Assembly (NCBI GenBank): GCA_963631065.1
Contig: CAVGPE010000052.1
Span: 1 to 49,534, forward strand
Reading direction: 5' to 3'
Length of the DNA stretch: 49,534 bases
DNA from: Ruminococcus bicirculans (ex Wegman et al. 2014)
Lineage (GTDB): Bacteria > Bacteroidota > Bacteroidia > Bacteroidales > UBA932
Shown here: positions 65 through 49,534 of the stretch, piece by piece
Layout of the letters: the number at the start of each line of letters is the position of its first letter
Position numbering within the stretch: the stretch's first letter is position 1
Translations under genes and position numbers: made by a program
Notes under the pieces: generated by a model
Seen by the model: the letters and a program-made list of their open reading frames with translations, nothing else
What the model was told of the DNA's origin: nothing
Databases searched by the model: none

Positions 65-220
65 AGAATCACAGCCAAAATGCAATTTTTTACCTCGTTT
101 TGGCTGAGATTCTTATTATTGATTCTATTAATCATATAATAATCAAGGAATTAAGACTGTTGTCGCGTATCCGGAAATCTCAGCCAAAATGCGATTTTTT
201 GCCCCGTTTTGGCTAAGATT
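65..220. repeat. Two copies of a ~46-49 bp imperfect palindrome (AATCwCAGCCAAAA-N17-TTTTGGCTrAGATT) upstream of the ATPase gene
   Basis: Copy 1 spans 65-113 (arms 65-80 and 98-113). Copy 2 spans 176-220 (arms 176-189 and 207-220). The spacers are also similar (tgcrattttt...cg). Confidence 0.85.
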
Positions 221-244
221 CCTTGCGAATCACAAGAAAGAACT

Positions 245-252
245 TATATTTG
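245..252 (+). promoter_or_regulatory. Bacteroidetes -7 promoter box for the ATPase gene
   Basis: TATATTTG(C) matches TAnnTTTG and lies 18 nt before the ATG at 271. Confidence 0.6.
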
Positions 253-270
253 CGGAAACTGTACGCAAAT

Positions 271-1731
271 ATGAACACCGAAAACATCATCGGCAGGAAA
301 AGGGAGCTGGAGCTGATAAGCCGGCTCTACCGATCGGACAAGTCTGAGTTTCTGGCCATCTACGGGCGGCGGCGCGTTGGGAAATCATATCTGATTGACG
401 AGAGTTTCCGCGGCGAGATGGCGTTTTCCGCAGTAGGCACGTTCAGAAAATATGCGACCGGGGAAGAAGCGCAGCACAAAAGGACTCAGCTCAAGCACTT
501 CTACCGCAGTCTGCTCGAATACGGACTGGACCCGTCCTGCGGCGAGCCGGAAGCTTGGATTGACGCCTTTGACTTGCTCAAGAAGCTGCTGAGCGCCAAT
601 CCGTCCCCGAGAAAAGTGGTCTTTATGGATGAACTCCCGTGGCTTGCAGGGCCGAAATCCTCGGAACTCATAGAGGAACTCGGATATTTCTGGAACGGTT
701 GGGCCGTGAAGCAGAGAAACATTTTCCTCATCGTATGCGGTTCGGCCACAAGCTGGATGCTGGACAATGTCATCAGAGACTACGGCGGGCTGTACGGCCG
801 CCTGACGGAGAAGATGCATCTCGCCCCGTTCAGCCTCTGCGAGACAAAGCAATACTACATCCGGAGGGGATTCAATATGTCAGACTACGAAATGGCGCTC
901 AGCTATATGGCTATCGGCGGCATTCCATATTATATGGACCGTATGCTTCCGGGAAGAACTCTTAGCCAGAACATCAACGAATTCTTCTTCCGCAACCCTT
1001 CCGTCAACCAGGAGTTCAAAGATGTTTATACGGGTCTGTTCCAGTCTGCGGACAAATATGTGGAAACGGTGCGCCTGCTGGGCGGGAAGTTCTACGGTAT
1101 GACGAGAAACGAGCTTCTGGAAGCCACAGGATTCAAAGGCGGCGGCACATTCACGAAAATGCTCGAAAACCTTCAGGAATGCGGGATAATCCGGTCTTTC
1201 TCGAGATACGGCAGGCAACGGAGGGAAACCGTCTGGCAGCTGTGCGACTTTTTCTCGCTGTTCTATCTTAATTTTGTGGGAGGCAGGACACAGAGAAAGG
1301 ACTGGATATATTTCCAACGGTCACACGAATATGAGAACTGGAGTGGAAGGACTTTCGAACTTCTGTGTTCAAGACATCTGGAGCAGATCAAATATGCCTT
1401 GAGAATCAAATCATTGGGGCAGGACTACTGCTGGGCCGGTTCCGGTCCGGACGGAGCCGGGGTACAGGTGGATATGATGATTCCGTCTCCGGAAGAGAGG
1501 ACGGACTATCTGTGCGAAATGAAGTTCTCGGAAAATCCGTATTACATCACGGCGGAGTACGAGAAGAGCCTGCTGGGCAAGCTTGCCGCGTTCAGACTCT
1601 CGAAAAATCACAAGGCCTCACATTCTCTCCTGCTGGTGATGGTGACCTCGATGGGGCTGGGCGAATCCGTCCACAACGGCGCGGTCAACGCCAAAGTGAG
1701 CCTGCAGGACCTGTTCCGCGAGACAGAGTAA
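271..1731 (+). CDS. AAA/archaeal-type ATPase with winged helix and C-terminal PD-(D/E)XK-like (DUF234-type) domain
   Basis: IIGRKRE start, Walker A GRRRVGKS, Walker B VVFMDE, CGSATSW, GGIPYY, and C-terminal QVDMMI...LCEMKFS. The ATG at 271 is preferred over the upstream start at 223. Confidence 0.85.
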   Translation: MNTENIIGRKRELELISRLYRSDKSEFLAIYGRRRVGKSYLIDESFRGEMAFSAVGTFRKYATGEEAQHKRTQLKHFYRSLLEYGLDPSCGEPEAWIDAFDLLKKLLSANPSPRKVVFMDELPWLAGPKSSELIEELGYFWNGWAVKQRNIFLIVCGSATSWMLDNVIRDYGGLYGRLTEKMHLAPFSLCETKQYYIRRGFNMSDYEMALSYMAIGGIPYYMDRMLPGRTLSQNINEFFFRNPSVNQEFKDVYTGLFQSADKYVETVRLLGGKFYGMTRNELLEATGFKGGGTFTKMLENLQECGIIRSFSRYGRQRRETVWQLCDFFSLFYLNFVGGRTQRKDWIYFQRSHEYENWSGRTFELLCSRHLEQIKYALRIKSLGQDYCWAGSGPDGAGVQVDMMIPSPEERTDYLCEMKFSENPYYITAEYEKSLLGKLAAFRLSKNHKASHSLLLVMVTSMGLGESVHNGAVNAKVSLQDLFRETE

Positions 1732-26209: not shown

Positions 26210-26394
26210 CAAGTTTCGCAAGTAATAAAATTTATTGTAAAATAAGCATTGTGCAGGTACTTGCAAAACTTTTCCCTCCCGCACAAGCTTCGCTTATTGT
26301 TATTACGTCACCCTTTCCCTAAATCCCTTTCCTCGGGAAAGGGACTTACTTTCGGCCCTGCGGGCCTCTAAAACTGTGTTTCGCAAGTGCGAAA
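26210..26394. mobile_element. Structured ~185-bp MITE/REP-like insertion between rimP and nusA
   Basis: Flanked by the 10-bp direct repeat CTTCTATTCT (26200-26209 and 26395-26404). Ends are AAGTTTCGCA/TGCGAAACTT, there are several internal hairpins, and a 48-bp part recurs at 42124-42171. Confidence 0.55.
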
Positions 26395-32254: not shown

Positions 32255-33301
32255 CTACCTGCGTCCGCCTCCGCGGCTGCTCCCGCCGCCTCCGCCGCCG
32301 CTGCGCGACGAACTGCCTCCTCCGTAGCTCCTGGAAGAGGAAGAACCGCCGGAATAGCTTGACCCGCTGCTGCGGCTGTAGCTGCTCGAACTGCTCGAAC
32401 TTGAGCTGCTGCGGCTGTAGATGCTTGAGTTGCTTGAACTTGAACTTGAACTTGAACTTGAACTTGAGCTGCGGCTGTAGCTGCCTGAACCGCTTGAGCT
32501 GCCGGAGGATTCGTTACGGCTGCCGTAGCTGCGCGAATAGTTGTATCCGCTGCCGGAATTGACTCCCGTGCGTCCGGAAGCAGAAGAAGATGATGTGGAC
32601 CTGTTCACCGCACCGTTGCCGCCGGAAACGGAGCGCCTGTTGTTCAGAACTGCGGATCCGGACGAGCCGTAGCTGCCGCCGCTGACTCCCGGCCTGTAAT
32701 TGTAGCCGCTTCCGCCGCCCCTGTTGCCCTGCGTCCCGCCGTCCTGGGTATATCTGCGCTCGCCGTAGTAGTGCCTTCCGTCAGGAGAAAGTCCCGGCTT
32801 CGGAGGTGCGGGATTCCAATGCCAGCCGTAGTGGTGGTGATGATAGCCCGGACCGTACCAAGGGTCGTAACGCCAAGGGTCATAATACCACGGATCGTAA
32901 TGCCAAGGGTCGTAGTACCAAGGGCTGTATCCCCAATGTCTGCCGTAAGAATACCACGGGTCATAATGCCACCAGTGCCGACTCCAGCCCCAACTCCAGC
33001 TCCATCCGTACCTCCAGGCCCAGTCGGAATACCAGTTGTCATAAAGGCTTGAGTACGCGGTGCCGGTATCGTCCCTCAGCACCACGTACACCGTATCCGC
33101 GACCTGCTTGTCGCGGGCGATATTCTGCGCGGCCATAGCCGCGAAATCATCCTTGGAATACAGCCGCACCGGCATCGACGCCGGTTCTACACGCACATAT
33201 ATGCCGTCCGGATACCGCTGCTGCCCGGAATACCACGCAGCCGGCCCGCACGAAGCGAGAGCAAAAAGAAGAGGCAGTAAAAGCGCCAGAATCCGTTTCA
33301 T
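32255..33301 (-). CDS. Lipoprotein with W/Y/D/P repeats and a Gly/Ser low-complexity tail
   Basis: Lipobox FALASC, DGIY motif, (YDPWx)n repeats and an S/G-rich C-terminus. Confidence 0.8.
32433..32462. repeat. (CTTGAA)5 hexanucleotide repeat encoding poly-Ser
   Basis: Read directly from the sequence. It is in frame within the lipoprotein tail. Confidence 0.85.
32856..32929. repeat. 15-bp period repeat encoding (Y-D/S-P-W-x)5
   Basis: ccaagggtcgta-like units every 15 bp. Confidence 0.8.
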
Positions 33302-39360: not shown

Positions 39361-40092
39361 TCATTGTAGCCCGGCAGTCCGCCGGGCTTTTTTGATGTCG
39401 TGGACGCGGAGGATGTCCGCACCCCGGGAGATGGCGATGCGATGGGCCTTCTCGGTGTCGCCGCCGGTGAAGCGCTTGTCCGCGGCTCCTATCAGAATCG
39501 GTCTTCCGAACACGCGCAGCGCTTCCAGACCCTCAAGTATCTCCCAGTTCTGCTCCGCCGTCTTGGCGAAGCCCAGTCCGGGGTCGAGAATCCAGTCGTT
39601 GATATGATATTCCGCCGCCCGGTGTCCGAATTCTTCGAAATACTCTTTCAGTGCCGGGATGACCCCTTCCGGGTAGCTGCACTGTGAATCCATCGTCCGG
39701 GGGTTGCCCCTCTTGTGCATTGCGATGTACCTCAGTCCGAGTTTCCCTACCGTCGGGAGCATCTCCGGGTCGTCCTCCCCCGCCGATATGTCGTTGACGG
39801 TGAACCGTCCGAAAGTCTCGAACGCCCTGCGGACAATCAGGGCGCTGGTGGTGTCTATGGAAATGTCCAGTCCCGGGTCAAGCTTCTCAAGCACGGGGGC
39901 GAGCCGTCCCCACTCCTGCTCCTCGCTCACTGCAGCGGCTCCGGGACGGGTGGACACCGCGCCGATGTCTATGATGTCCGCTCCGTCGGCAATCATCTTC
40001 TCTATGCGCTGCGGCGCCTCTTCCGGCAGCGTCCTGCTGTCCGCCCAGAACGAATCCGGTGTCAGATTCACTATTCCCATTATTTTTACCAT
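39361..40092 (-). CDS. folP: Dihydropteroate synthase
   Basis: MGIVNLTPDSF, DIGAVSTRPG, SIDT, NDIS, DPGLGFAK, ILRVHD. Confidence 0.93.
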   Translation of the reverse strand: MVKIMGIVNLTPDSFWADSRTLPEEAPQRIEKMIADGADIIDIGAVSTRPGAAAVSEEQEWGRLAPVLEKLDPGLDISIDTTSALIVRRAFETFGRFTVNDISAGEDDPEMLPTVGKLGLRYIAMHKRGNPRTMDSQCSYPEGVIPALKEYFEEFGHRAAEYHINDWILDPGLGFAKTAEQNWEILEGLEALRVFGRPILIGAADKRFTGGDTEKAHRIAISRGADILRVHDIKKARRTAGLQ

Positions 40093-40134
40093 AGTGCGAA
40101 GATAATATTTAATGGTATTTCTTGTATCTTCGCC
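40085..40134. repeat. 50-bp inverted repeat arm A1 (folP start plus divergent promoter), partner at 49401-49450
   Basis: 45/50 identical to the reverse complement of 49401-49450. Confidence 0.9.
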
Positions 40135-40350
40135 GAGGACGCATACGCCAGAAGGGTGGCGATGGAAGAAGGCGAGGCTAAAGGCAGAGAAGAAGGCAGA
40201 GAAGAAGGCAGAGAGGAAGGTCGGGAGGAAGGTCGGGAGGAAGAAAGAACTTCCCTCGTCTCCAAATTGCTTAAGTCCGGCCTGAGTGCCGAGACTATAG
40301 CCTCAGCCACCGGACTGTCAGTGGAGACAGTGCTGGGGTGTCGCGGCTGA
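40131..40350 (+). repeat. 220-bp perfect inverted copy of the Rpn gene 3' end (45361-45580)
   Basis: Identical base for base by manual comparison. The match ends at the TGA stop codon. Confidence 0.95.
40162..40350 (+). CDS. Putative stand-alone Rpn C-terminal small protein (62 aa, RpnS-like antitoxin candidate)
   Basis: MEEGEAKG(REEG)4REEERTSLVSKLLKSGLSAETIASATGLSVETVLGCRG, with a TATCTTCG -7-like box at 40125-40132. Expression is unproven. Confidence 0.45.
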   Translation: MEEGEAKGREEGREEGREEGREEGREEERTSLVSKLLKSGLSAETIASATGLSVETVLGCRG

Positions 40351-40361
40351 AGGCTTCCTTA

Positions 40362-42110
40362 CTATTTCACCTCAATCCTGTTCTCCATCCTTGCAAGCAT
40401 CTGGGGAGCTGTCAAATCCTTGAGAAATCCAAGCCGGGCGGCTATGCCGTCAGCACCGCTGCCCCCTATCTTGGAGAGGATTTTCTCCATCTGGCTCTGA
40501 GGGGCGGGATAGCCGCAGATGTTCCATCCGGAGAGCGCCGGATCTCCGGCAAGAGCGGCGGCATACTGCACCGCATCCTCAAGCGTCCCGATTTCGTCCA
40601 CGAGATGGACCGTGAGGGCGTCAGCCCCCGTCCACACGCGGCCCTGCGCGATGGAATCCACTGTCGTCTCAGGCAGCGACCTGTTCTCGGCGACTATGGA
40701 GACGAATTTGCCGTAGATGGTCTCGATGGACCTGGTCATATAGTTGTACTCGCTCTGGTCGAAAGGTCGCGTCAGACTGAACATGTCACCGTGCCTGTGG
40801 GAACTTACGCTCTCCACCCCTATATGAAGCACGTCTTTCGCGGTCTTCGAGAAGTCCGGGACCAGGCCGAACACCCCGATCGAGCCGGTGAGGGTCGTCG
40901 CATCGGAGAATATCTTCTCGCATCCGTTGGAAATCCAGTATCCTCCGGATGCCGCATAGCCGCCGTATGAGGCCACTACCGGTTTGGTCTCCTTGAGATT
41001 GTCCAGCTCGGTCTTTATCTTCTCTGAAGCAAGCACGCTTCCTCCCGGAGAATTGACGCGCAGCACGACGGCCTTGACCGTGGAGTCGGCGCACACCTTG
41101 GAGATGAGCGAGGCGAACCTGTCCCCTGCCACTCCGGATTTGCCGCCGCCGTCGACAATCTCTCCGTCGGCGTAGATGACGGCAATCTTCCGCTTCGCCT
41201 TGGAAGGCGCGGACTTCACAGCCACATAGTCCTCGAACGGAATCAGGCTGACATCTTTGAAACTGTCCTTGACGGCCAGCACCGCCAGTTTGTCCTCCAG
41301 CTCGGAACGGGTCAGGAGTTCATCGACGAGCCCGCATTCCACGAAATCCTGCGGCAAATTGAGCTTGAGGCCGTTGATGGCGCCGTCCAGCTCCGCCGCC
41401 GTGATGTCGCGGCTTCCGGTTATGCTCTCCGACATACTCTCCCAGATGGAGTCCACCAGCCTCTGGTTCTGCTCCCGGTTCTCTTCACTGGAATTCGCGC
41501 GGGTGAACATCTCCCCCGCAGACTTGTATTTCCCGTGGCGAATGAGCTGCACATTGACTCCCAGCCGCTTGAGTATGTCGCCGAGGAACACCGACTGGCT
41601 GGACACTCCCGTCAGCATATAGGTACCTCCGATATGGGAGGTCATATAGATCTTGTCGGAGACGGAGGCGAGGTAGTACGATCCGGTGGTCGGAGCTTCG
41701 ATATATGACACTATCGGCTTGCCGCTGCGCTCACGGAAGAGGGAGAGGGACTTGCGCAGCTCCTCCAGCGACGCGACATCGCCGCCCACCCCGTCCGTCT
41801 TCAGATATATATACTGTACCGCAGGGTCTGCCGCGGCGGCATTGATGGCCTGCACCGCATCCCACAGCCCTATTATGTTCACATCGCTGCCCCCGGTGAC
41901 TGAAGCCAGAGGATTCGCCCCCTCGCTCCGCTCGCCTATCGCGAAGCGTGACATATCCATCACGAGAACTCCGGATTTGGGAATCGCGGGCGTGCCGCTG
42001 CCGGCTGCGACAAGTGCGCCGAGCATCCCGAATCCGAGTATGAAAACGATTACACCCACAACTATCAGACCGCAGACCACGGCCAGAGTCATCTTGACAA
42101 AATCTTTCAT
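40362..42110 (-). CDS. sppA: Signal peptide peptidase A (protease IV), 67K type
   Basis: YYLASVSD, GKYKSAGE, LRVNSPGGS, AASGGYWI, TGSIGV, QGRVWTG. Confidence 0.95.
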   Translation of the reverse strand: MKDFVKMTLAVVCGLIVVGVIVFILGFGMLGALVAAGSGTPAIPKSGVLVMDMSRFAIGERSEGANPLASVTGGSDVNIIGLWDAVQAINAAAADPAVQYIYLKTDGVGGDVASLEELRKSLSLFRERSGKPIVSYIEAPTTGSYYLASVSDKIYMTSHIGGTYMLTGVSSQSVFLGDILKRLGVNVQLIRHGKYKSAGEMFTRANSSEENREQNQRLVDSIWESMSESITGSRDITAAELDGAINGLKLNLPQDFVECGLVDELLTRSELEDKLAVLAVKDSFKDVSLIPFEDYVAVKSAPSKAKRKIAVIYADGEIVDGGGKSGVAGDRFASLISKVCADSTVKAVVLRVNSPGGSVLASEKIKTELDNLKETKPVVASYGGYAASGGYWISNGCEKIFSDATTLTGSIGVFGLVPDFSKTAKDVLHIGVESVSSHRHGDMFSLTRPFDQSEYNYMTRSIETIYGKFVSIVAENRSLPETTVDSIAQGRVWTGADALTVHLVDEIGTLEDAVQYAAALAGDPALSGWNICGYPAPQSQMEKILSKIGGSGADGIAARLGFLKDLTAPQMLARMENRIEVK

Positions 42111-42123
42111 CTGCTATAACTCA

Positions 42124-42171
42124 AATAAAATTTGTTGTAAAATAAGCATTGTGCAGGTACTTGCGAAGCTT
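42124..42171. repeat. 48-bp copy of part of the rimP-nusA intergenic element
   Basis: AATAAAATTTrTTGTAAAATAAGCATTGTGCAGGTACTTGCrAArCTT, 45/48 identical to 26224-26271. Confidence 0.9.
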
Positions 42172-42228
42172 AAATGATATAAATTGTGTAATTTTTACCA
42201 AAAGTAGTAAATTCGCGAGATAAAACAA

Positions 42229-43593
42229 ATGTCAATGGCACAGAAACCGTCAATCCCGAGGGGAACCAGGGACTTCGGCCAGAGCGAGATGGCCGGCAGA
42301 AACCACATCTTCGATACCGTACGCTCGGTATTCCGCACTTACGGATATTCTCAGATTGAGACTCCGGCTATGGAGAATCTCTCGACTCTGCTCGGAAAAT
42401 ACGGCGAGGAGGGGGACAAGCTGCTGTTCAGGATACTCAATTCCGGAGATGCCTTCGCGGATGTGGATCCGTCCAGACCGCTTGCTCCGCAGGTGTGCGA
42501 GAAGGGATTGCGCTACGACCTTACGGTGCCTTTCGCCCGCTATGTGGTGCAGCACCGCGACGAGCTGTCATTCCCGTTCAAGCGTTTCCAGATTCAGCCT
42601 GTATGGAGGGCCGACCGTCCGCAGAAGGGGCGTTACCGCGAATTCTATCAGTGCGACGTAGACGCGATAGGCAGCCGCAGCCAGCTCTGCGAACTCGAAC
42701 TTGTGCAGATAGTGGACGAAGTGTTCAGAAGGCTGGGAATCAATGTGCTGATAAAGATCAACAACCGCAAGGTCCTCACCGGACTCGCCGAAATATGCGG
42801 ATTTCCGGACAAGGTGGTCGATATCACCGTGGCGATAGACAAGCTCGACAAGACAGGTCTTGACGCGGTGCGGGACGAGATGCGCGGCAAGGGCCTGAGC
42901 GACGAGGCGATATCCCTGCTTGAACCGGTCCTTTCCCTCAGCGGGACGACGGAGGAGAAAATCGGGAAGATGCGCGGGATTATGGCCGCCTCGGAGACCG
43001 GGATGAAGGGTCTGGAGGAGCTGGAGGAGCTGTTCGGCTTTATAGGTGCCGCCGGCATCAGCGCCCCTGTGGAGCTCGATCTCTCGCTTGCGAGGGGACT
43101 CAACTACTATACCGGAGCCATCTTCGAAGTCAAGGCCTTGGACTGGCAGATAGGAAGCATCTGCGGCGGCGGGCGCTACGACAACCTCACCGGCATTTTC
43201 GGCCTTCCGGATATGTCCGGAGTGGGCATAAGTTTCGGTGCGGACCGGATTTATGACGTGCTCTGCGGACTTGACAAGTTCCCGGAAGGCCTCAGGAGCA
43301 GTACAACCCTTCTGTTTGCCAATATGGGGATTGATGAGGTCGGATATATATTCCCTGTGGCATCAGCCCTGCGCGCGGAGGGTATTGCGGTGGAGATTTA
43401 TCCCGATTCCTCCAAGCTCAAGAAGCAGTTCGACTATGCCGGGCGCAAATTCATCCCGTTCATCTCCATCACCGGAGCTTCGGAGGCCGAAGCCGCCGTC
43501 GTGAACATCAAGAACCTCGCTTCCGGAGAGCAGAAGAGCTTCGGGAAGGATGATGTGGCAGGGATGAAGGCCTTTCTGCTGGCGCGGCCCTGA
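42229..43593 (+). CDS. hisS: Histidine-tRNA ligase
   Basis: [44 protein letters not shown]. Confidence 0.97.
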
Positions 43594-43599
43594 GGGGGC

Positions 43600-44622
43600 T
43601 TACAACAGCAGCATCACGGCGAATACATACAGCAGAAAAGCCTGAAGCCTGAGCTTCGGAGCATTGTTTTCCGCTATCAGCGACTCTGTAGGGTCGGTTC
43701 CGGCAAGGACTTCGAGCTTGTCTTTTTTCGGCGTACGGTTGACGGACCACTTCGCGATTATCTGCCCGTCGGCTATGAAACTGACTCCGCCGTTGGAGCG
43801 GTTGAGGGTCAGGAGGGTCTTGCGGTCGGCGAAGTAGGTGTATTGCAGTATTTCCTGTCCGGCGTATTCCGCAATCTCGTCGGGGTAGGATGCCGCCAGC
43901 ACCAGCGGGGTGAATCCTGCGGCGGCGGCCTGCTCCATCAGACCTGCGATCTTCTGCCACTTGCGTCCGGAGAGCCGTTCCGGATTATAGACGGACGATA
44001 TCAGCACCCTGCTGTCAAATGCGAGCGAATCGGCGTATTCGCCTCCGGCGTCGCTGAACGAGAGTTCCGCAGGGTCGAGTTCCGCTCCGGGCCGGTAATC
44101 GGTGAAGTCAATCACGGGGACTGACAGGACGGAATATAGAAAGAAGAGACACACCGAGACGCCGGCGATCGAGAAACTGACATATTTCACCTTGCGAGTC
44201 GGCTCCTGAACGCCGGGAGGCACGAACGCCACGGCCCACAGCACCAGCAGCACCAGATTCTTGACGAAGCTCTGCAGATGTGTGAGGTGAATCGCCTCCC
44301 CGAAGCAGCCGCAATCCATAGATGGATTGAATATCAGAGTGATGGCCGTGAGGACGGTGAAGAATCCGAGGATGGCGAGTGTCACCGCGGCGCACACCTG
44401 CCTCCACACGCCGGTAATCAGCGCGGCTCCGAGCAGAGTCTCGATGAGAGCCCCGGCCCCGCCGACAAAGCCCGACAGCGGGCGCAGAAAGCCCAGATGC
44501 AGGAACTTGAAATACTCCTCCACGACCAGACCCGCCCCGACCGGATCCATAAGCTTGAACAGCCCCGCGAAAAAGAACACGAACCCTATGACTACGGCGC
44601 TAATTCTCTTTATTATTCTCAT
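43600..44622 (-). CDS. DoxX/MauE-family membrane protein with C-terminal thioredoxin-like region
   Basis: FAGLFKLMDP, DCGCFGEAI, SFVKN, RSNGG. Start at MRIIKR, overlapping the end of tmk. Confidence 0.8.
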   Translation of the reverse strand: MRIIKRISAVVIGFVFFFAGLFKLMDPVGAGLVVEEYFKFLHLGFLRPLSGFVGGAGALIETLLGAALITGVWRQVCAAVTLAILGFFTVLTAITLIFNPSMDCGCFGEAIHLTHLQSFVKNLVLLVLWAVAFVPPGVQEPTRKVKYVSFSIAGVSVCLFFLYSVLSVPVIDFTDYRPGAELDPAELSFSDAGGEYADSLAFDSRVLISSVYNPERLSGRKWQKIAGLMEQAAAAGFTPLVLAASYPDEIAEYAGQEILQYTYFADRKTLLTLNRSNGGVSFIADGQIIAKWSVNRTPKKDKLEVLAGTDPTESLIAENNAPKLRLQAFLLYVFAVMLLL

Positions 44623-45283
44623 ATATCGACCGTATCTTTTCGAAAATGGCCTCCGGAGGGAGCATGACTCCACGCTCGTCAGCGCAGTTCACCGTGATGA
44701 AACTCGGGTCTTCCGCAGCTTGCCTGCGGTACATATCCCGCACCCGCTCCTGAAATGCGATATCCGCCTCGTGGATGTCGCCGCCGCCGTGCAGATACTC
44801 CCTGTCCCCTCCGCCGCGATGCGCCGAGAGGCTCTTCTCCACAAAGCCGAGAGGCACGTCGAGGAAGATGTTGAGGTCGGGACGGGGCAGGTTGAAGTCT
44901 CCGTATTCGGTGTTGAAGATCCACTTCCTCAGCTCCTCGGCCCCGGCATCGGAGGACATTTTGGCGCACTGGTAGGCTATGTTGGAATATACATACCTGT
45001 CCAGCAGTACCGTAGCCCCCTCCTCAAGCGCCCGGCGTATCTGAGGTGCCGCCCCGTGGCGGTCCTCCGCGAAGAGCAGCGCCACAAGCTGCGGGTGTAC
45101 GATGCCGATGCTGCCGAAATCCCCTCTGAGGAAACGGCTTATCAGTTCCCCGTACACGGGAGCGCCGTAACGCGGGAAATGGATGTATTCGACTCGCGGA
45201 CATACGCTCTCAAGATGCTCCTTGAGCATCTTTACCTGAGTGGATTTCCCCGCTCCGTCCAGTCCTTCAAGTACTATCAGCAT
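44600..45283 (-). CDS. tmk: Thymidylate kinase
   Basis: EGLDGAGKST, FPRY, LDRYVYSNIAYQ, PDLNIFLDV. Confidence 0.92.
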   Translation of the reverse strand: MLIVLEGLDGAGKSTQVKMLKEHLESVCPRVEYIHFPRYGAPVYGELISRFLRGDFGSIGIVHPQLVALLFAEDRHGAAPQIRRALEEGATVLLDRYVYSNIAYQCAKMSSDAGAEELRKWIFNTEYGDFNLPRPDLNIFLDVPLGFVEKSLSAHRGGGDREYLHGGGDIHEADIAFQERVRDMYRRQAAEDPSFITVNCADERGVMLPPEAIFEKIRSIYENNKEN

Positions 45284-45360
45284 ATACTTTTAAAGCTTTC
45301 CAGGATTCCGGTTTGTGGCGGCTTTCCGTTCTTCAGTAGTGCGCCTCAACGCCTGGCCTC

Positions 45361-46302
45361 TCAGCCGCGACACCCCAGCACTGTCTCCACTGACAGTCCG
45401 GTGGCTGAGGCTATAGTCTCGGCACTCAGGCCGGACTTAAGCAATTTGGAGACGAGGGAAGTTCTTTCTTCCTCCCGACCTTCCTCCCGACCTTCCTCTC
45501 TGCCTTCTTCTCTGCCTTCTTCTCTGCCTTTAGCCTCGCCTTCTTCCATCGCCACCCTTCTGGCGTATGCGTCCTCGGCGCGTTTATCGAGTTCCCGTAT
45601 CATATCCTGTTCGAAAATCATTTTCTTTCTTCTGTCGAAGCCGGCCACCTCGCACGCGCGGAGCAACTCTCCCGAGAACCCTGACCTGTGTTCCTCCGCC
45701 AGATGCTCCAGCACGCTGCCCTGTCTGAATATGTGGAAGAGCCAGTCCCGGTCAGAAACGCACTCCGCCTCCGTCTTAGTGAAGCGCCTCAACTCGGCAA
45801 AGATACAAGAAATTGTCGGAGGCGCAAGTTCTCCGGTCCGTTTTTCAGTCATCTGGTATTCGGACACGATATGCTCCGTGTCCCAGAGTGATTCGTCCGC
45901 GTGTCCGAGATTGTAGTCGAGGATGCCGACCACATACACCGGGCGCAGCTGCGTATAGAGTCCGCCCCTGAGCAGCCTCTGCCTATAGAGTCCGCTGCCG
46001 TAGTAGACGCACCTCTCGAAGAACGCTTCCTTCTCCCGGCGCTGCATCTCGACGATGAAGCGCCTTCCGTCATCCGTGCGGCAGAGCACGTCAAGTTCCG
46101 ACCCCTTGCCTCCACGGAAGTCCGGAAGCCGCTCACGGTCAAGGTACTCTTCGATTTCGGCAATCGCGTCGCTCTCCGGGAGCAGGAGGTTGAGCATCTT
46201 GCGGAGGAGTTCCCGGTTGTTGCGGTCAGCGAATACCGCAGTGAAACCCGCATCGAGTTTGAGATCCACATAGCGCGGGAGTGAGAATTGAGAGTTTTCC
46301 AT
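45361..46302 (-). CDS. Rpn family recombination-promoting nuclease / PD-(D/E)XK nuclease (PDDEXK_2)
   Basis: LDAGFTAVF, LDVLCRT...FIVEMQ, ERCVYY, IFAELRRF, and (REEG)n followed by an HTH-like IASATGLS tail. Confidence 0.9.
   Translation of the reverse strand: MENSQFSLPRYVDLKLDAGFTAVFADRNNRELLRKMLNLLLPESDAIAEIEEYLDRERLPDFRGGKGSELDVLCRTDDGRRFIVEMQRREKEAFFERCVYYGSGLYRQRLLRGGLYTQLRPVYVVGILDYNLGHADESLWDTEHIVSEYQMTEKRTGELAPPTISCIFAELRRFTKTEAECVSDRDWLFHIFRQGSVLEHLAEEHRSGFSGELLRACEVAGFDRRKKMIFEQDMIRELDKRAEDAYARRVAMEEGEAKGREEGREEGREEGREEGREEERTSLVSKLLKSGLSAETIASATGLSVETVLGCRG
45798..45828 (-). promoter_or_regulatory. Candidate intragenic promoter in the Rpn gene
   Basis: Minus strand CTTG-N19-TATCTTTG(C), upstream of internal ATGs at 45621, 45603 and 45549. 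Confidence 0.45.
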
Positions 46303-46485
46303 AATCTGAAGTCTTTAAGTTCATCATCCGTCCCCGGCCCTTCCGGAGACTGCCCGCGAACATAGCGAGTCTTTTCCGGCAATCCTATAGGGCGGACATA
46401 AGAAACATAAAAGAACAGTGCAAAACAGAAAATACTTTCATAAAATCTTATCTTTGTCTCCACTGACAGTCAAAAACACTTTGAG

Positions 46486-47619
46486 ATGGCGAACAAGAAT
46501 GGTAACCTGGGCTCGGCCAAGGTCAACAAGAACGACGAATTCTATACCCAATATCCGGACATACAGAAAGAAGTCAATGCCTATATTGAGTACGACAAGG
46601 ATACATTCAGGGGCAAGACCGTCCTGCTTCCCTGCGATGACCCTGAATGGAGCAACTTTACCAAGTTCTTCGCCCAAAACTTCGAGCGCTACGGGTTGAA
46701 GAAACTCATATCGACGAGTTATGCCCGCAACAGCAAGAAAGCCCGCTACGGCATCGTCTCCGAGCCGTCCCTATTCGAACAGGAGTCTGACATCTACGAC
46801 GAAGACAAATCGAGGGACAACGGCAGAATCTTCGTTCTTGAGAAGAAAGACATCAGCGAAGACGGGCGGGTGGACTATGAAGACCTCATCTGGGATTATC
46901 TCGAAGGAGACGGTGATTTCCGCTCTGATGAAGTCAAGAAGTTGAGGGACGAGGCTGACATCATCGTCACTAACCCTCCGTTCAGTATGTTCAGGGAGTT
47001 TCTGGCCTGGATACTTGAAGCCGGCAAGAAATTTTTGGTTATCGGGAATATGAACGCGATAACTTACAAGGAGGTATTCCCTTTGATAAAGGACAACGGG
47101 GTCTGGCTGGGTGCAACCGGATTCACTACAGATATGGTTTTCGCTGTGCCGGAGGGGGCGGATGTCGCTGAAAGCGACAGGGCCAAAGCCGCTAAGATGG
47201 GTTATGTCGGCAACTATACCAGACTGGGCAATTCCTGCTGGTTCACCAACATAGACCACGGCAGACGCCATCAGCCGCTGTCCCTGATGACTATGGCGGA
47301 CAATCTCAAGTTCAGCCGGCATAAGGATATAAGGGGCAAGGAGGCTTATGACCGCTATGACAACTACGATGCGATTGAAGTCCCCTACACGGACGCGATT
47401 CCGAGTGACTATACTGAATGCCTCGGTGTTCCGATTTCATTTCTGGACAAATACTGCCCCTTTCAATACCAAATTATCGGGGCGACGGAGAGCGAGGGAC
47501 GGGGATTCTCGGCCGGACTGTGGAATCCTGAAAGCGGCATACATCAGGCGACAATCAATGGGAATAAGATTTATAAGCGGTTATTTATCAAGAAGTTAAC
47601 GGAAGAGAGAGAGCTATAG
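46486..47619 (+). CDS. Adenine-specific DNA methyltransferase, EcoRI family
   Basis: KNDEFYT, LPCDDP.SNF, GDGDFRS, catalytic [35 protein letters not shown]. Confidence 0.9.
   Translation: MANKNGNLGSAKVNKNDEFYTQYPDIQKEVNAYIEYDKDTFRGKTVLLPCDDPEWSNFTKFFAQNFERYGLKKLISTSYARNSKKARYGIVSEPSLFEQESDIYDEDKSRDNGRIFVLEKKDISEDGRVDYEDLIWDYLEGDGDFRSDEVKKLRDEADIIVTNPPFSMFREFLAWILEAGKKFLVIGNMNAITYKEVFPLIKDNGVWLGATGFTTDMVFAVPEGADVAESDRAKAAKMGYVGNYTRLGNSCWFTNIDHGRRHQPLSLMTMADNLKFSRHKDIRGKEAYDRYDNYDAIEVPYTDAIPSDYTECLGVPISFLDKYCPFQYQIIGATESEGRGFSAGLWNPESGIHQATINGNKIYKRLFIKKLTEEREL
47604..47613 (+). repeat. (AG)5 dinucleotide tract just before the MTase stop codon
   Basis: gaAGAGAGAGAGcta tag. Confidence 0.7.
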
Positions 47620-47638
47620 AAGCATAATTGAAGCGATT

Positions 47639-47905
47639 GTGGCTATGGGTATCGCAAGGGAGGAAATAACATATTATTCCGGCGTTATGGGCGTTCCTAT
47701 TTCGTTCCTTGACAAATATTGTCCGGAACAGTTTGAGATTATTGGAAGCTTTAATAATAGCCATTTACAAGAAAAAGGGAAAGATGGATATGTTCTTAGC
47801 AATGATACCGAAACTCTTATTAATGGGAAAGTCGGCATTTGGAATGGCCCGGTGGTGAATAGGCAACCTTTATACAAGAGAATATGCATTCGTAAAATAA
47901 AGTGA
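47639..47905 (+). CDS. Extra C-terminal module of the EcoRI-family MTase (alternative variable-region cassette)
   Basis: [24 protein letters not shown]...LYKRICIRK is paralogous to the MTase C-terminus, with a different central segment. AT-rich. Start uncertain. Confidence 0.7.
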
Positions 47906-47907
47906 TT

Positions 47908-49074
47908 ATGAGAACAAAACTGCATACGGACTGGACGGTGGCGGACATCTGCAAGGGCTTCGTTTACAATGAGTACGAGGGCAAGGGTCTGTTCGGCCTT
48001 GACGGTCATCTGGTCATCCAGCCGGAGTACCAGAGAAATTACATATATGCCGATGGAAAAAAAGATGTGGCGGTAATCCAGTCCGTCCTGAGCGGCTATC
48101 CTTTGGGGTTGATATATTTCAACACTGTAGGCGAATTCGAATATGAGGTGCTGGACGGGCAGCAGCGTATTACTTCGCTTGGAAGGTTTCTTAATGACCG
48201 GTTCGCGATAAAATTTGGAGAGAGCGATATCCCCCAGTATTTCTCAAGCCTTCCTAAAGACAAACAGGAACTCATCCTGAATACAAAACTGCTGATATAC
48301 GAGTGCGAGGGAGTGGAGAGTGAAATCAAAGATTGGTTCAGAACCATCAATATCGCCGGTGTTCCGCTCAACGAGCAGGAACTGCTTAACGCCATTTATT
48401 CGGGTCCGTTCGTCACTCTCTGCAAGGCGGAATACAGCAACAGCAACAACTCCAACCTTCAGAAATGGAGCGCTTATATCAGTGGTGACTGTAAGAGGCA
48501 GGACTATCTTGCTACAGCGCTGGAATGGGTCAGTAGAGGTAAGGTGCAGGACTATATGAGCAGACACCGCTATGATGACGGGATCAATGAGGTGAAGACC
48601 TATTTCAGCTCCGTCATCGAGTGGATTTCCAAAGTATTCAGGGATGTGGAGAGCGAGATGAAGGGGCTGCCTTGGGGCGAGTATTACGAGACCTATCACA
48701 CCAGACCTTATTCAGCGGAATATGTCTCTCGGAGAGTGCGTGAACTCTATGCCGATCCATATGTAAAGAATCGCAAAGGTGTCTTTGAGTTTATCCTCGG
48801 AGGCGAGACAGAAACCAAACTTCTTGATGTAAGAATTTTTGATGAGGCCACCAAAAGAGCCGTGTATGAACGACAAACCGCAGAAGCAAAAAGAAGAGAA
48901 GAATCAAACTGTCCGCTCTGCGCTATGGGCAATGATGCCAACCGCACCAGAATATATAAGCTGTCCGAAATGGATGCCGACCATATAACTGCCTGGTCTC
49001 ACAACGGGGCGACCGACATCGCCAACTGCCAGATGCTCTGCAAGACCCACAACAAGGCGAAAGGCAACAGATAG
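47908..49074 (+). CDS. DUF262 (ParB/GmrS-like) plus HNH endonuclease, putative restriction partner
   Basis: [16 protein letters not shown], and C-terminal CPLC...DADHI.AWS.GG.T...NCQMLC..HN..KGN. Confidence 0.88.
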
Positions 49075-49085
49075 CGGTCCGTTTT

Positions 49086-49394
49086 TCAGTCTTCCCCGTC
49101 GACGACGAAGTCGCAGGCGACGCGCGATTCGCGGACTTTGCCGCAATATGACGATATCGCGATGTGTGCGGGATGGTTTTTGTACCGATCAAGAGCCTCC
49201 AGTGACTCGAAAGTCGCGATGAGGCAGGCATCGTAGTTGCCGTCCTTTATGTTGATTCCCACCTCGCAGGAGAGCAGTTCAGGTACCACCCCCGTCAGCG
49301 ACTCAAGATTCGTCTTCATCCACCGGGCATTTTCTCCGGCGCTCTTCCCCTCGGCCTGAGGCAGAAGTTTCCACATTACCACGTGCTTAATCAT
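49086..49394 (-). CDS. Dabb (stress-responsive A/B barrel) family protein
   Basis: MIKHVVMWKL, FESLEALDRYKNHPAH, CDF. A TATCTTTGC box lies just upstream. Confidence 0.88.
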   Translation of the reverse strand: MIKHVVMWKLLPQAEGKSAGENARWMKTNLESLTGVVPELLSCEVGINIKDGNYDACLIATFESLEALDRYKNHPAHIAISSYCGKVRESRVACDFVVDGED

Positions 49395-49400
49395 AACGGG

Positions 49401-49450
49401 GGCAAAGATACAAGAAATACCATTAAATCTTACCTTCGCGCTATGGTGAA
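49401..49450. repeat. 50-bp inverted repeat arm A2 (Dabb promoter plus remnant of the folP start)
   Basis: Reverse complement is 45/50 identical to 40085-40134. Weaker folP-like similarity continues to about 49481 (TCTGACAC). Confidence 0.88.
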
Positions 49451-49534
49451 GGAAGATAATGTGGACACGGAAGTCTGACACTTCCATAGGCTGGAAATCT
49501 TCATAAATATTCCGTAACCGCTGAAAATTAATAA

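What the first reader, a model, noticed from the sequence alone, without database searches (positions are those of the whole stretch)
40125..40350. Stand-alone perfect copy of the Rpn C-terminus under its own promoter: candidate trans-encoded antitoxin cassette
Seen: 40131-40350 is identical to the reverse complement of 45361-45580, and the match stops exactly at the TGA. It sits behind a TATCTTCG box, a variant also seen before folP and hisS, and contains an ATG-started 62-aa ORF with (REEG)n and an HTH-like tail. Established: in characterised enterobacterial Rpn proteins the C-terminal part is translated separately as a small intragenic antitoxin that neutralises the toxic anti-phage nuclease. 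Inference: the antitoxin module has been copied out and promoter-captured. It could be a second antitoxin dose, a donor cassette for tail exchange among Rpn paralogues, or a domestication step. The two copies also form a 220-bp inverted repeat able to flip sppA-hisS-doxX-tmk.
Basis: partly seen in the sequence, partly recalled or inferred. Interest (0 to 1): 0.8.

Follow-up and report, generated by a model that had tools for sequence, protein, structure and literature searches.

The report
Rearrangement scar copied from Rpn tail
A 220-base exact copy of the tail of an anti-phage toxin-antitoxin gene sits at the edge of an inverted gene block, but it lacks the start codon that the gene's relatives keep, so it is likely a rearrangement scar and not a working extra antitoxin; stand-alone copies of such tails are already known.

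Summary
40131-40350 is a 100% inverted copy of the last 220 bp of rpn (45361-46302), behind a TATCTTCG box, with a 62-aa ORF.

The antitoxin reading is weak. The copy begins at codon 241/242, after the Met that homologues conserve (M234, 56 of 62). The ORF starts at M252 (1 of 62), in a poor start context. Stand-alone RpnS genes are published (Zhong 2023: ypaA/rpnESs, rpnCSs).

The copy sits at the left junction of a ~9-kb block (sppA to dabb) that is inverted against relatives; 0 of 20 loci with both genes share the folP/sppA junction. The box in front descends from rpn's own intragenic promoter, conserved at synonymous sites in 29 of 30 loci and earlier captured by dabb. Near strains, seen only as proteins, encode just Rpn residues 151-313 with fewer repeats, so the copy is recent. 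It is likely a templated repair patch (0.6). An expressed short antitoxin remains possible (0.2). No reads were available.

More interesting in passing: detached rpn internal promoters precede host genes, and tmk seems to depend on one. The scan's earlier notes held nothing similar.

The parts
40131..40350 (+). 220-bp exact copy of the rpn 3' end (last base of codon 241 to the stop codon); left arm of the inverted repeat
40162..40350 (+). 62-aa ORF from the non-conserved M252 (repeat helix plus HTH-like end); lacks residues 234-251 of the predicted RpnS
40125..40132 (+). -7 box TATCTTCG spanning the junction; the C comes from the copied tail or a later change (TTTG in the source promoter, at 49401-49450 and in G121/G169)
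40085..40130 (.). divergent folP promoter region (folP's own box TATCTTCG at 40104-40097 on the minus strand); its right part is identical to the dabb promoter
40362..45283 (.). sppA, hisS, BT_3928/DoxX-like gene and tmk, lying between the arms; order reversed with respect to folP compared with relatives
45361..46302 (-). full-length rpn (313 aa); D17, D71, E85, Q87 and R97 match the homologue consensus; T at the near-invariant K21
45361..45580 (-). source arm of the inverted repeat
45361..45603 (-). predicted natural RpnS, 80 aa from the conserved M234
45798..45827 (-). predicted intragenic promoter of rpn (TTG at codon 159, TATCTTTG at codons 166-169); also the nearest box upstream of tmk
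46455..46471 (.). 17-nt exact copy of rpn tail sequence (45382-45398) inside the methyltransferase promoter; 5 of 17 positions differ from the homologous G146 spacer
46486..49074 (+). type II methyltransferase and HNH restriction enzyme, lower G+C; inferred to have entered together with the rpn 5' half
49075..49094 (.). 17-20-nt direct repeat of rpn codons 150-156 over the dabb stop; leftover of the dabb/rpn-half fusion seen in near strains
49086..49394 (-). dabb (stress-responsive A/B barrel) gene
49401..49465 (-). dabb promoter with a remnant of the folP start; inverted partner of 40085-40134; right end of the inverted block

Best explanation
The 220-bp stretch is an exact but start-less copy of the rpn tail, and it is likely a recent templated repair patch laid at the left junction of an older ~9-kb inversion, not a selected antitoxin gene. 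Shown: the copy; the missing M234; the reversed gene order; the identity of 40111-40130 with the dabb promoter; the 18-nt identity of that promoter with rpn's internal promoter; and GCCGAG at both ends of a 219-nt in-frame gap in rpn. Inferred steps: (1) the block from dabb through rpn and tmk to sppA was inverted, leaving related folP-promoter sequence at both ends. (2) Later a broken strand at the folP promoter paired with its homologue at 49401-49450 and copied the -7 box. It then slipped over short homologies (dabb promoter to internal promoter, then GCCGAG to GCCGAG) into the tail, copied to the stop codon and rejoined at the sppA end over a ~4-nt near-match. (3) The product may be transcribed weakly but is predicted to be translated poorly. 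A duplication followed by deletions would give the same sequence and cannot be told apart here.
For: Gene order: full order folP(rev)-tmk-doxX-hisS(rev)-sppA on one contig in G028, G003, G014, G005 and in G146 and G121 (G121 has dabb between folP and tmk). folP is divergent within 150 bp of tmk in 45 of 80 metagenome loci, and none of the 80 has an rpn-like hit. Of 259 loci examined, 20 hold both a folP start and an sppA end, and 0 of 20 have the window's junction (some loci repeat a genome). Missing start: column 234 is Met in 56 of 62 homologues (5 Lys with Met one column on, 1 fragment); column 252 is Met in 1 of 62 (62 of the 120 listed, of 3879 hits). 47 of 120 small stand-alone homologues begin at the M234 equivalent, and 1 of 120 has repeats within its first 10 residues. 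Start context of M252 scores -4.0, below 98% of 158 promoter-anchored starts; M234 scores -0.3. The AUG is predicted paired (unpaired probability 0.10; median 0.51). Promoter origin: the G169 dabb promoter matches rpn codons 156-169 even with the -7 box left out (0 of 5000 shuffles against the G091 rpn, 7 of 5000 against this rpn). Recency: near-strain Rpn halves carry one REEG, while both window copies carry four with identical DNA.
Against: No reads and no same-species DNA were available, so neither junction of the copy was seen in a second assembly. The box-to-ATG spacing gives a leader of about 25 nt, close to the 23-nt mode in B. thetaiotaomicron. TATCTTCG is folP's conserved box in G121 and G169, and 6 of 29 internal boxes end in TTCG, so the variant can work. 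The frame is intact from junction to stop. The leader hairpin is not unusual against shuffles (z -1.21), and -12..+6 accessibility is average. The start model was trained on A+T-rich promoter-proximal starts, and M234 itself scores only in the 6th percentile. The small-protein search used the 80-aa form as query, which favours proteins that have that start. A GCCGAG slip predicts T, not C, at 40131, so one more change is needed. The 62-aa peptide got weak support for binding the full protein (see the first rival).
Confidence: 0.6

Rival explanations
1. It is an expressed, shortened stand-alone antitoxin (an RpnSs-like gene). The folP-side box drives a 62-aa peptide that pairs with the full Rpn through the repeat helix, and it buffers a nuclease that this lineage likely regained recently.
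For: Box, ~25-nt leader and open frame are in place. The repeat number is identical to the full protein, which E. coli RpnC requires (PMC10400941). The peptide keeps residues 252-289 of the predicted helix 224-289 and both short helices. Complex prediction gave weak support: score 0.54, best of 3 controls 0.01, runs agree in at least 99% of contacts, partner pLDDT at least 85. The mark was reached by 116 of 157 solved complexes and 2 of 215 mismatched pairs, but at 0.60 or under by only 18 of the 157 and by both mismatches. The RpnA-S homodimer is solved (7TH0), so the pass may reflect likeness. Near strains seem to lack the nuclease half.
Against: It lacks the conserved M234 and 18 residues. 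The start context is poor. The -7 box has C at a position that is near-invariant T in F. johnsoniae; TAnnTTCG occurs in 21 of 468 A+T-rich upstream regions against 136 for TAnnTTTG. The gene already has its own predicted internal promoter and M234 start. The toxin carries T at K21, where 60 of 61 homologues have K. No other genome examined has such a copy at this site.
Confidence: 0.2
2. The arms act as a recombination switch. Homologous recombination would flip sppA-hisS-doxX-tmk and move tmk-doxX from rpn's promoters to the folP-side box.
For: 220-bp perfect arms 5010 bp apart. A flip breaks no gene and puts the tmk start 296 nt from the box. tmk has no -7 box in the 78 bp after the rpn stop.
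Against: No recombinase family among 47 window ORFs scanned with Pfam (ORFs past the gap were not scanned). The arms are seen in one genome only. The assembled orientation keeps the rpn-tmk link seen in G169 and G121 and the G146-type tmk leader. No evidence of two orientations.
Confidence: 0.07
3. The copy, or its perfect identity, is an assembly artefact of a metagenome-assembled genome.
For: Draft genome of 115 contigs, 77.6% complete. rpn pieces often lie at contig ends in the nearest species. Neither the 62-aa ORF nor the 313-aa Rpn is in the protein collection as an exact sequence.
Against: Both junctions of the copy are unique sequence, and the longest exact overlap with the internal promoter is 14 nt. 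The other end of the inversion is supported independently: the N-terminal extension of a near-strain Dabb reads through the same sequence on both sides of the scaffold gap. Collapse of a few variants could explain 100% identity but not the copy's presence.
Confidence: 0.08
4. It is a silent donor cassette kept for tail exchange among rpn paralogues.
For: Relatives show mosaic tails on similar N-terminal halves and tandem tail copies. The C94 tail is 83% identical over 132 nt.
Against: A donor identical to its only visible recipient carries no variation. One full-length PF12784 gene was found in this assembly. Flank copies are no more frequent for rpn (6 of 61) than for control windows (52 of 498).
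Confidence: 0.05

Closest known systems
Stand-alone RpnSs genes of E. coli (ypaA/rpnESs, rpnCSs; DUF4351, PF14261), PMC10400941
   Same: A second copy of the small C-terminal region, derived from the neighbouring rpn gene, with four-residue repeats (main text parts 1-3 of 5 read).
   Different: Those lie downstream of rpn, and RpnESs was detected as protein. This copy is inverted, 5 kb away, lacks the conserved start and the first 18 residues, and sits at a rearrangement junction. Tandem tail copies that keep the conserved Met occur in L130 and in G169 contig C30 and fit the known kind better.
RpnL/RpnS gene-within-gene toxin-antitoxin systems (TIGR01784, PF12784; E. coli RpnA-E, PF04754)
   Same: PD-(D/E)XK-type N-terminal half, variable repeat helix, HTH-like end and an internal promoter.
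   Different: Function is untested in this subfamily. The internal promoter is of the Bacteroidota type. This protein has T at K21. Near strains appear to hold only residues 151-313.
Templated insertions at rearrangement junctions (template switching) and asymmetric tandem inversion-duplications
   Same: Nearby sequence copied into a junction with short homologies at each switch.
   Different: The comparison is recalled from general knowledge; one search gave only a listing, mostly of human work, and no paper was read. The mechanism here is inferred from one sequence.
Invertible promoters and shufflons of Bacteroidales
   Same: Inverted repeats around genes, with a promoter at one arm.
   Different: The arms are a 220-bp gene fragment, no recombinase was found among the window ORFs scanned, and no second orientation is known. 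Features of these systems are recalled, apart from a passage.

Membership tests
Rpn family (source gene 45361-46302) | PF12784 / TIGR01784 match over the curated cut-off | tested here: met
   119.2 bits vs 27.4 and 105.4 vs 52.1
Rpn family (source gene 45361-46302) | Catalytic residues like RpnA D11, D63, E82, Q84, R94 | tested here: met
   D17, D71, E85, Q87, R97 are conserved in at least 60 of 62 homologues and present here. RpnA residues are from passages of PMC5350276; the pairing is by motif spacing, not by direct alignment. K21 is T here.
Rpn family (source gene 45361-46302) | Internal promoter and internal start giving RpnS | tested here: inconclusive
   Conserved box in 29 of 30 loci and conserved M234; transcription and translation not observed
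Rpn family (source gene 45361-46302) | Toxic nuclease and phage defence | not testable with these tools
   No PADLOC model matched; needs experiments
Stand-alone RpnSs antitoxin (copy 40131-40350) | Derived from the cognate rpn tail with the same repeat number | tested here: met
   220 of 220 identical
Stand-alone RpnSs antitoxin (copy 40131-40350) | Keeps the RpnS start, with repeats beginning 8-20 residues after the Met (PMC10400941) | tested here: not met
   M234 is absent. From M234 the first repeat-like word is at residue 20; from M252 it is at residue 2. Counting only REEG gives residue 9, so the published range alone does not exclude it; the conservation test does.
Stand-alone RpnSs antitoxin (copy 40131-40350) | Own promoter | tested here: inconclusive
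   TATCTTCG is present, a minority variant (21 vs 136 of 468); no RNA data
Stand-alone RpnSs antitoxin (copy 40131-40350) | Protein is made and neutralises the long form | not testable with these tools
   Only a weak complex prediction, 0.54 vs best control 0.01
Stand-alone RpnSs antitoxin (copy 40131-40350) | DUF4351 (PF14261) domain or fold like RpnA-S (7TH0) | tested here: inconclusive
   No PF14261 hit for the 62- or 80-aa form. The model has one long and two short helices. 7TH0 was not among the listed matches.
Site-specific invertible segment | Recombinase nearby | tested here: not met
   None among 47 window ORFs scanned; genes beyond the gap not scanned
Site-specific invertible segment | Both orientations present in the population | not testable with these tools
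   No run was listed

The most novel reading that the evidence does not exclude
In this Bacteroidales group rpn works as a promoter-seeding element. Its conserved internal antitoxin promoter is left behind by deletions and taken over by host genes (dabb, a 4-alpha-glucanotransferase, the essential tmk). This pins a nuclease-less rpn half in place while the toxic half comes and goes by recombination. The 220-bp copy would be a snapshot of this process: a new promoter-plus-tail unit that makes a short antitoxin for the regained nuclease, and an invertible switch that moves tmk between two rpn-derived promoters. Promoter capture alone is more likely (about 0.6) than the whole reading.
Probability: 0.2. 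Interest if true: 0.65.

Novelty: new variant of a known kind. Interest (0 to 1): 0.35.

Why it matters
As a scar it matters little, and as an extra antitoxin copy it would be a variant of the published RpnSs genes. The side results carry the value. The internal promoter and internal start of Bacteroidales rpn genes can be placed to the base from synonymous-site conservation, which makes the RpnL/RpnS model directly testable outside enterobacteria. Detached copies of that promoter in front of host genes, including tmk, suggest one reason why rpn remnants persist in genomes. Searches of the paper library found no account of either point; subscription journals are largely missing from it.

Tried and rejected
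Same-species DNA: the metagenome scan with tmk reached 78% at best, and a second genus draw found nothing closer than G146. Near strains were seen only as proteins.

The idea that rpn generally sheds short copies into its flanks was rejected: 6 of 61 rpn genes against 52 of 498 control windows. In this genome rpn is the only one of 718 tiles with four nearby exact copies, but two of them are explained by descent (the promoter and the dabb fusion).

My first reading, that the box is simply the ancestral tmk promoter and that the inversion ran between the two arms, was dropped. The nearest species show dabb under this promoter and rpn pieces before tmk. My reading of 49075-49094 and 46455-46471 as remains of one tandem rpn copy was replaced by the dabb fusion; the 17-nt piece stays unexplained.

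The sigma-70 promoter scan is not suited to this phylum, and no terminator-like site was found at 39900-40700. Fold searches gave no match at E<=0.001. The sequence search of solved structures gave only a designed repeat protein. Earlier scan notes: nothing relevant. The alignment figure with Bacteroides fragilis RpnS in PMC10400941 (Fig. S6) is held as a picture, so the published start could not be compared with M234.

Full report
Observation. The repeat finder and a direct comparison show that 40131-40350 is the exact reverse complement of 45361-45580, with 5010 nt between the arms, and that the match ends on the stop codon. The source is a 313-aa Rpn. It is the only PF12784 match in this 1.35-Mb, 77.6%-complete assembly. 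One more tail-like stretch lies on contig C94 (83% over 132 nt). The box TATCTTCG is at 40125-40132; folP has the same box on the other strand, and hisS has TAAATTCG.

The copy lacks the conserved start. I aligned 62 of the 120 listed homologues (3879 hits). Column 234 is Met in 56, Lys with Met one column on in 5, and a gap in 1; column 252 is Met in 1. The copy begins at the last base of codon 241, so M228 and M234 are both missing and the first ATG is M252. Among 120 small stand-alone homologues, 47 begin at the M234 equivalent and 1 has repeats in its first 10 residues; the query was the 80-aa form, which biases this. A start-context model from 158 promoter-anchored starts of this genome scores M252 at -4.0 (2nd percentile of true starts) and M234 at -0.3 (6th percentile). 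The M252 AUG is predicted paired, though the hairpin is not exceptional. The missing residues belong to a predicted helix 224-289 (mean pLDDT 71).

rpn has an internal promoter. In 29 of 30 genus loci, the window's included, codons 166-169 spell TAnnTTYG although the residues differ (CIFA, VIFV, VTFV, VNFA). Codon 166 ends in T in 30 of 30 (6.5 expected from the family's codon use) and codon 159 in 29 of 30 (5.5 expected); these are the two most T-biased of 229 positions. The loci are kin, so these counts are not independent. The spacing fits the published -33 TTTG / -7 TAnnTTTG consensus (passages of PMC7366714 and PMC6847099). An internal promoter is also reported for E. coli rpn genes (PMC10400941).

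Where the box in front of the copy comes from. The word TTCTTGTATCTT(C/T)G occurs three times in the genome: before the copy, inside rpn and before dabb. In G121 and G169 folP is divergent from dabb under this same promoter. There the promoter still reads as decayed rpn codons 151-169; with the box left out, 0 of 5000 shuffles match the G091 rpn as well, and 7 of 5000 match this rpn as well. In the window, 40085-40134 and 49401-49450 are inverted partners that share a deletion of about 45 nt relative to G121. Their differences lie on the folP side, apart from the C/T at the junction. GCCGAG stands at both ends of a 219-nt in-frame gap between the internal promoter and the start of the copy.

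The copy marks an inversion junction. Four relatives and G146 and G121 have folP divergent from tmk, followed by doxX, hisS and sppA on one contig. G221 and G319 show the same in two contigs each; in G169 the folP-tmk link is broken by a contig end. After sppA comes tRNA-Met in 4 of these 5 nearest species. In 80 metagenome tmk loci, 45 have folP divergent within 150 bp, 12 show the full order and none has an rpn-like hit. None of 20 loci holding both a folP start and an sppA end has the window's junction. The rpn-tmk link is older than the copy: G169 has a tail before tmk, G121 a deleted remnant, and the G146 spacer maps to both sides of rpn. So the inverted block runs from the sppA end to the dabb promoter, about 9 kb. 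Its right junction is shared with a near strain, whose Dabb was called with an extension that reads through both sides of the scaffold gap (P0266).

Near strains, seen as proteins only. Cluster members at 96-99% identity exist for tmk and folP, and five of ten for hisS. On contigs of the same lengths, four proteins consist of Rpn residues 151-313 only, nearly identical to this one but with one REEG instead of four. The last residue of Dabb predicts residue 2 of these halves, as expected if the dabb stop overlaps the M151 codon, in 3 of 3 length-matched pairs. The window keeps that fusion as a 17-20-nt repeat at 49075-49094. The restriction enzyme has no other cluster member. I infer that this genome regained the nuclease half with the restriction-modification pair, and that the copy, which carries this genome's own repeat number, is younger than the inversion or was overwritten since.

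Mechanism. Most likely (0.6) a break at the folP promoter was repaired on its homologue before dabb, slipped through short homologies into the rpn tail, and rejoined at the sppA end; duplication followed by deletion is equivalent. Against this: a usable leader length, a box variant that folP uses in three species, an intact frame, and weak predicted binding of the 62-aa peptide (0.54 against 0.01 for the best control; a pass at 0.60 or under was reached by 18 of 157 solved complexes and by both mismatches that passed). These keep an expressed short antitoxin at 0.2. A switch (0.07), an artefact (0.08) and a donor cassette (0.05) are less likely. The readings are not fully exclusive.

Comparison with what is known. 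Zhong et al. 2023 (PMC10400941; parts 1-3 of 5 read, passages, supplement search) show that RpnS neutralises RpnL, needs the same repeat number, and can be encoded by a separate downstream copy. The stand-alone concept is therefore known. This copy works at best like such a gene and fails one defining test, the conserved start. Kingston et al. 2017 (PMC5350276; passages) give the catalytic residues and suggest that off-target cuts could feed microhomology-mediated assembly; whether Rpn caused the break here is untested.

In passing. A 34-nt pattern of the internal promoter matched 12 places in 9 of 401 genomes: 7 in rpn frames, 2 in truncated remnants, and 3 directly before a host ATG (dabb twice, a 4-alpha-glucanotransferase once). 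The pattern was drawn partly from those three, so this is not a frequency. A second subfamily's box matched 6 of 301 genomes; three of these lack the nuclease half, one of them before tmk in G121 and one on this genome's C94, which keeps box and conserved Met and is the better stand-alone antitoxin candidate.

Verdict. A real but probably incidental copy; a new variant of a known kind; interest 0.35, most of it from the internal-promoter results.

Noticed in passing
window 45798-45827 (-) and L105-L134: Conserved intragenic Bacteroidota-type promoter in rpn genes, visible as T-ending codons 159 and 166 (29 and 30 of 30; about 6 expected).
   Followed up: yes
G000 contig C94 7877-8240 (-) (L264): Nuclease-less rpn half of a second subfamily, with internal box TAATTTTG and a 76-aa ORF from the conserved Met; a better stand-alone antitoxin candidate than the finding. 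No cognate long form in the assembly.
   Followed up: partly
L247 590-640 (G146:C3); L248, L250 (G121, G169): rpn codons 150-169 detached and placed 7-9 nt before the ATG of a 4-alpha-glucanotransferase gene or of dabb.
   Followed up: partly
window 45284-45360; L208 7180-7685: tmk has no -7 box of its own after the rpn stop; in G121 a deleted rpn remnant with its internal box precedes tmk.
   Followed up: partly
P0296, P0297, P0410, P0411: Near strains encode only Rpn residues 151-313, apparently overlapping the dabb stop, with fewer repeats.
   Followed up: partly
window 46240-46242 (-), codon 21 of rpn: Thr where 60 of 61 homologues have Lys; the nuclease may be weakened.
   Followed up: no
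window 46455-46471: 17-nt exact copy of rpn tail sequence inside the methyltransferase promoter; 5 of 17 positions differ from the G146 homologue. Unexplained.
   Followed up: partly
window 47639-47905 (+): 88-aa ORF resembling the C-terminal end of the upstream methyltransferase (PF13651 positions 276-344), between it and the HNH gene; similar pieces in L179 and L180.
   Followed up: no
window 26224-26271 and 42124-42171: A ~48-bp intergenic element with at least 12 further copies in the genome and many in G121 and G146.
   Followed up: no
window 223-1731 (+); L211 between folP and tmk: AAA-type ATPase gene matching PADLOC PDC-S27 (E=4e-155); a gene of similar look sits in the folP-tmk spacer of G221, which is an insertion hot spot in this group.
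   Followed up: no
L215 1144-1800; L130 1120-1610; L145; L162: Tandem rpn tail copies; those read (L215, L130) keep the conserved Met, as in known RpnSs genes.
   Followed up: partly
window 32357-32503 and 32858-32924: Two short coding repeat tracts (39-nt and 15-nt periods) in ORF 32255-33301(-), which has no Pfam match.
   Followed up: no
window 67-112 and 176-221: Two copies of a 46-nt element with inverted ends before the ATPase gene.
   Followed up: no
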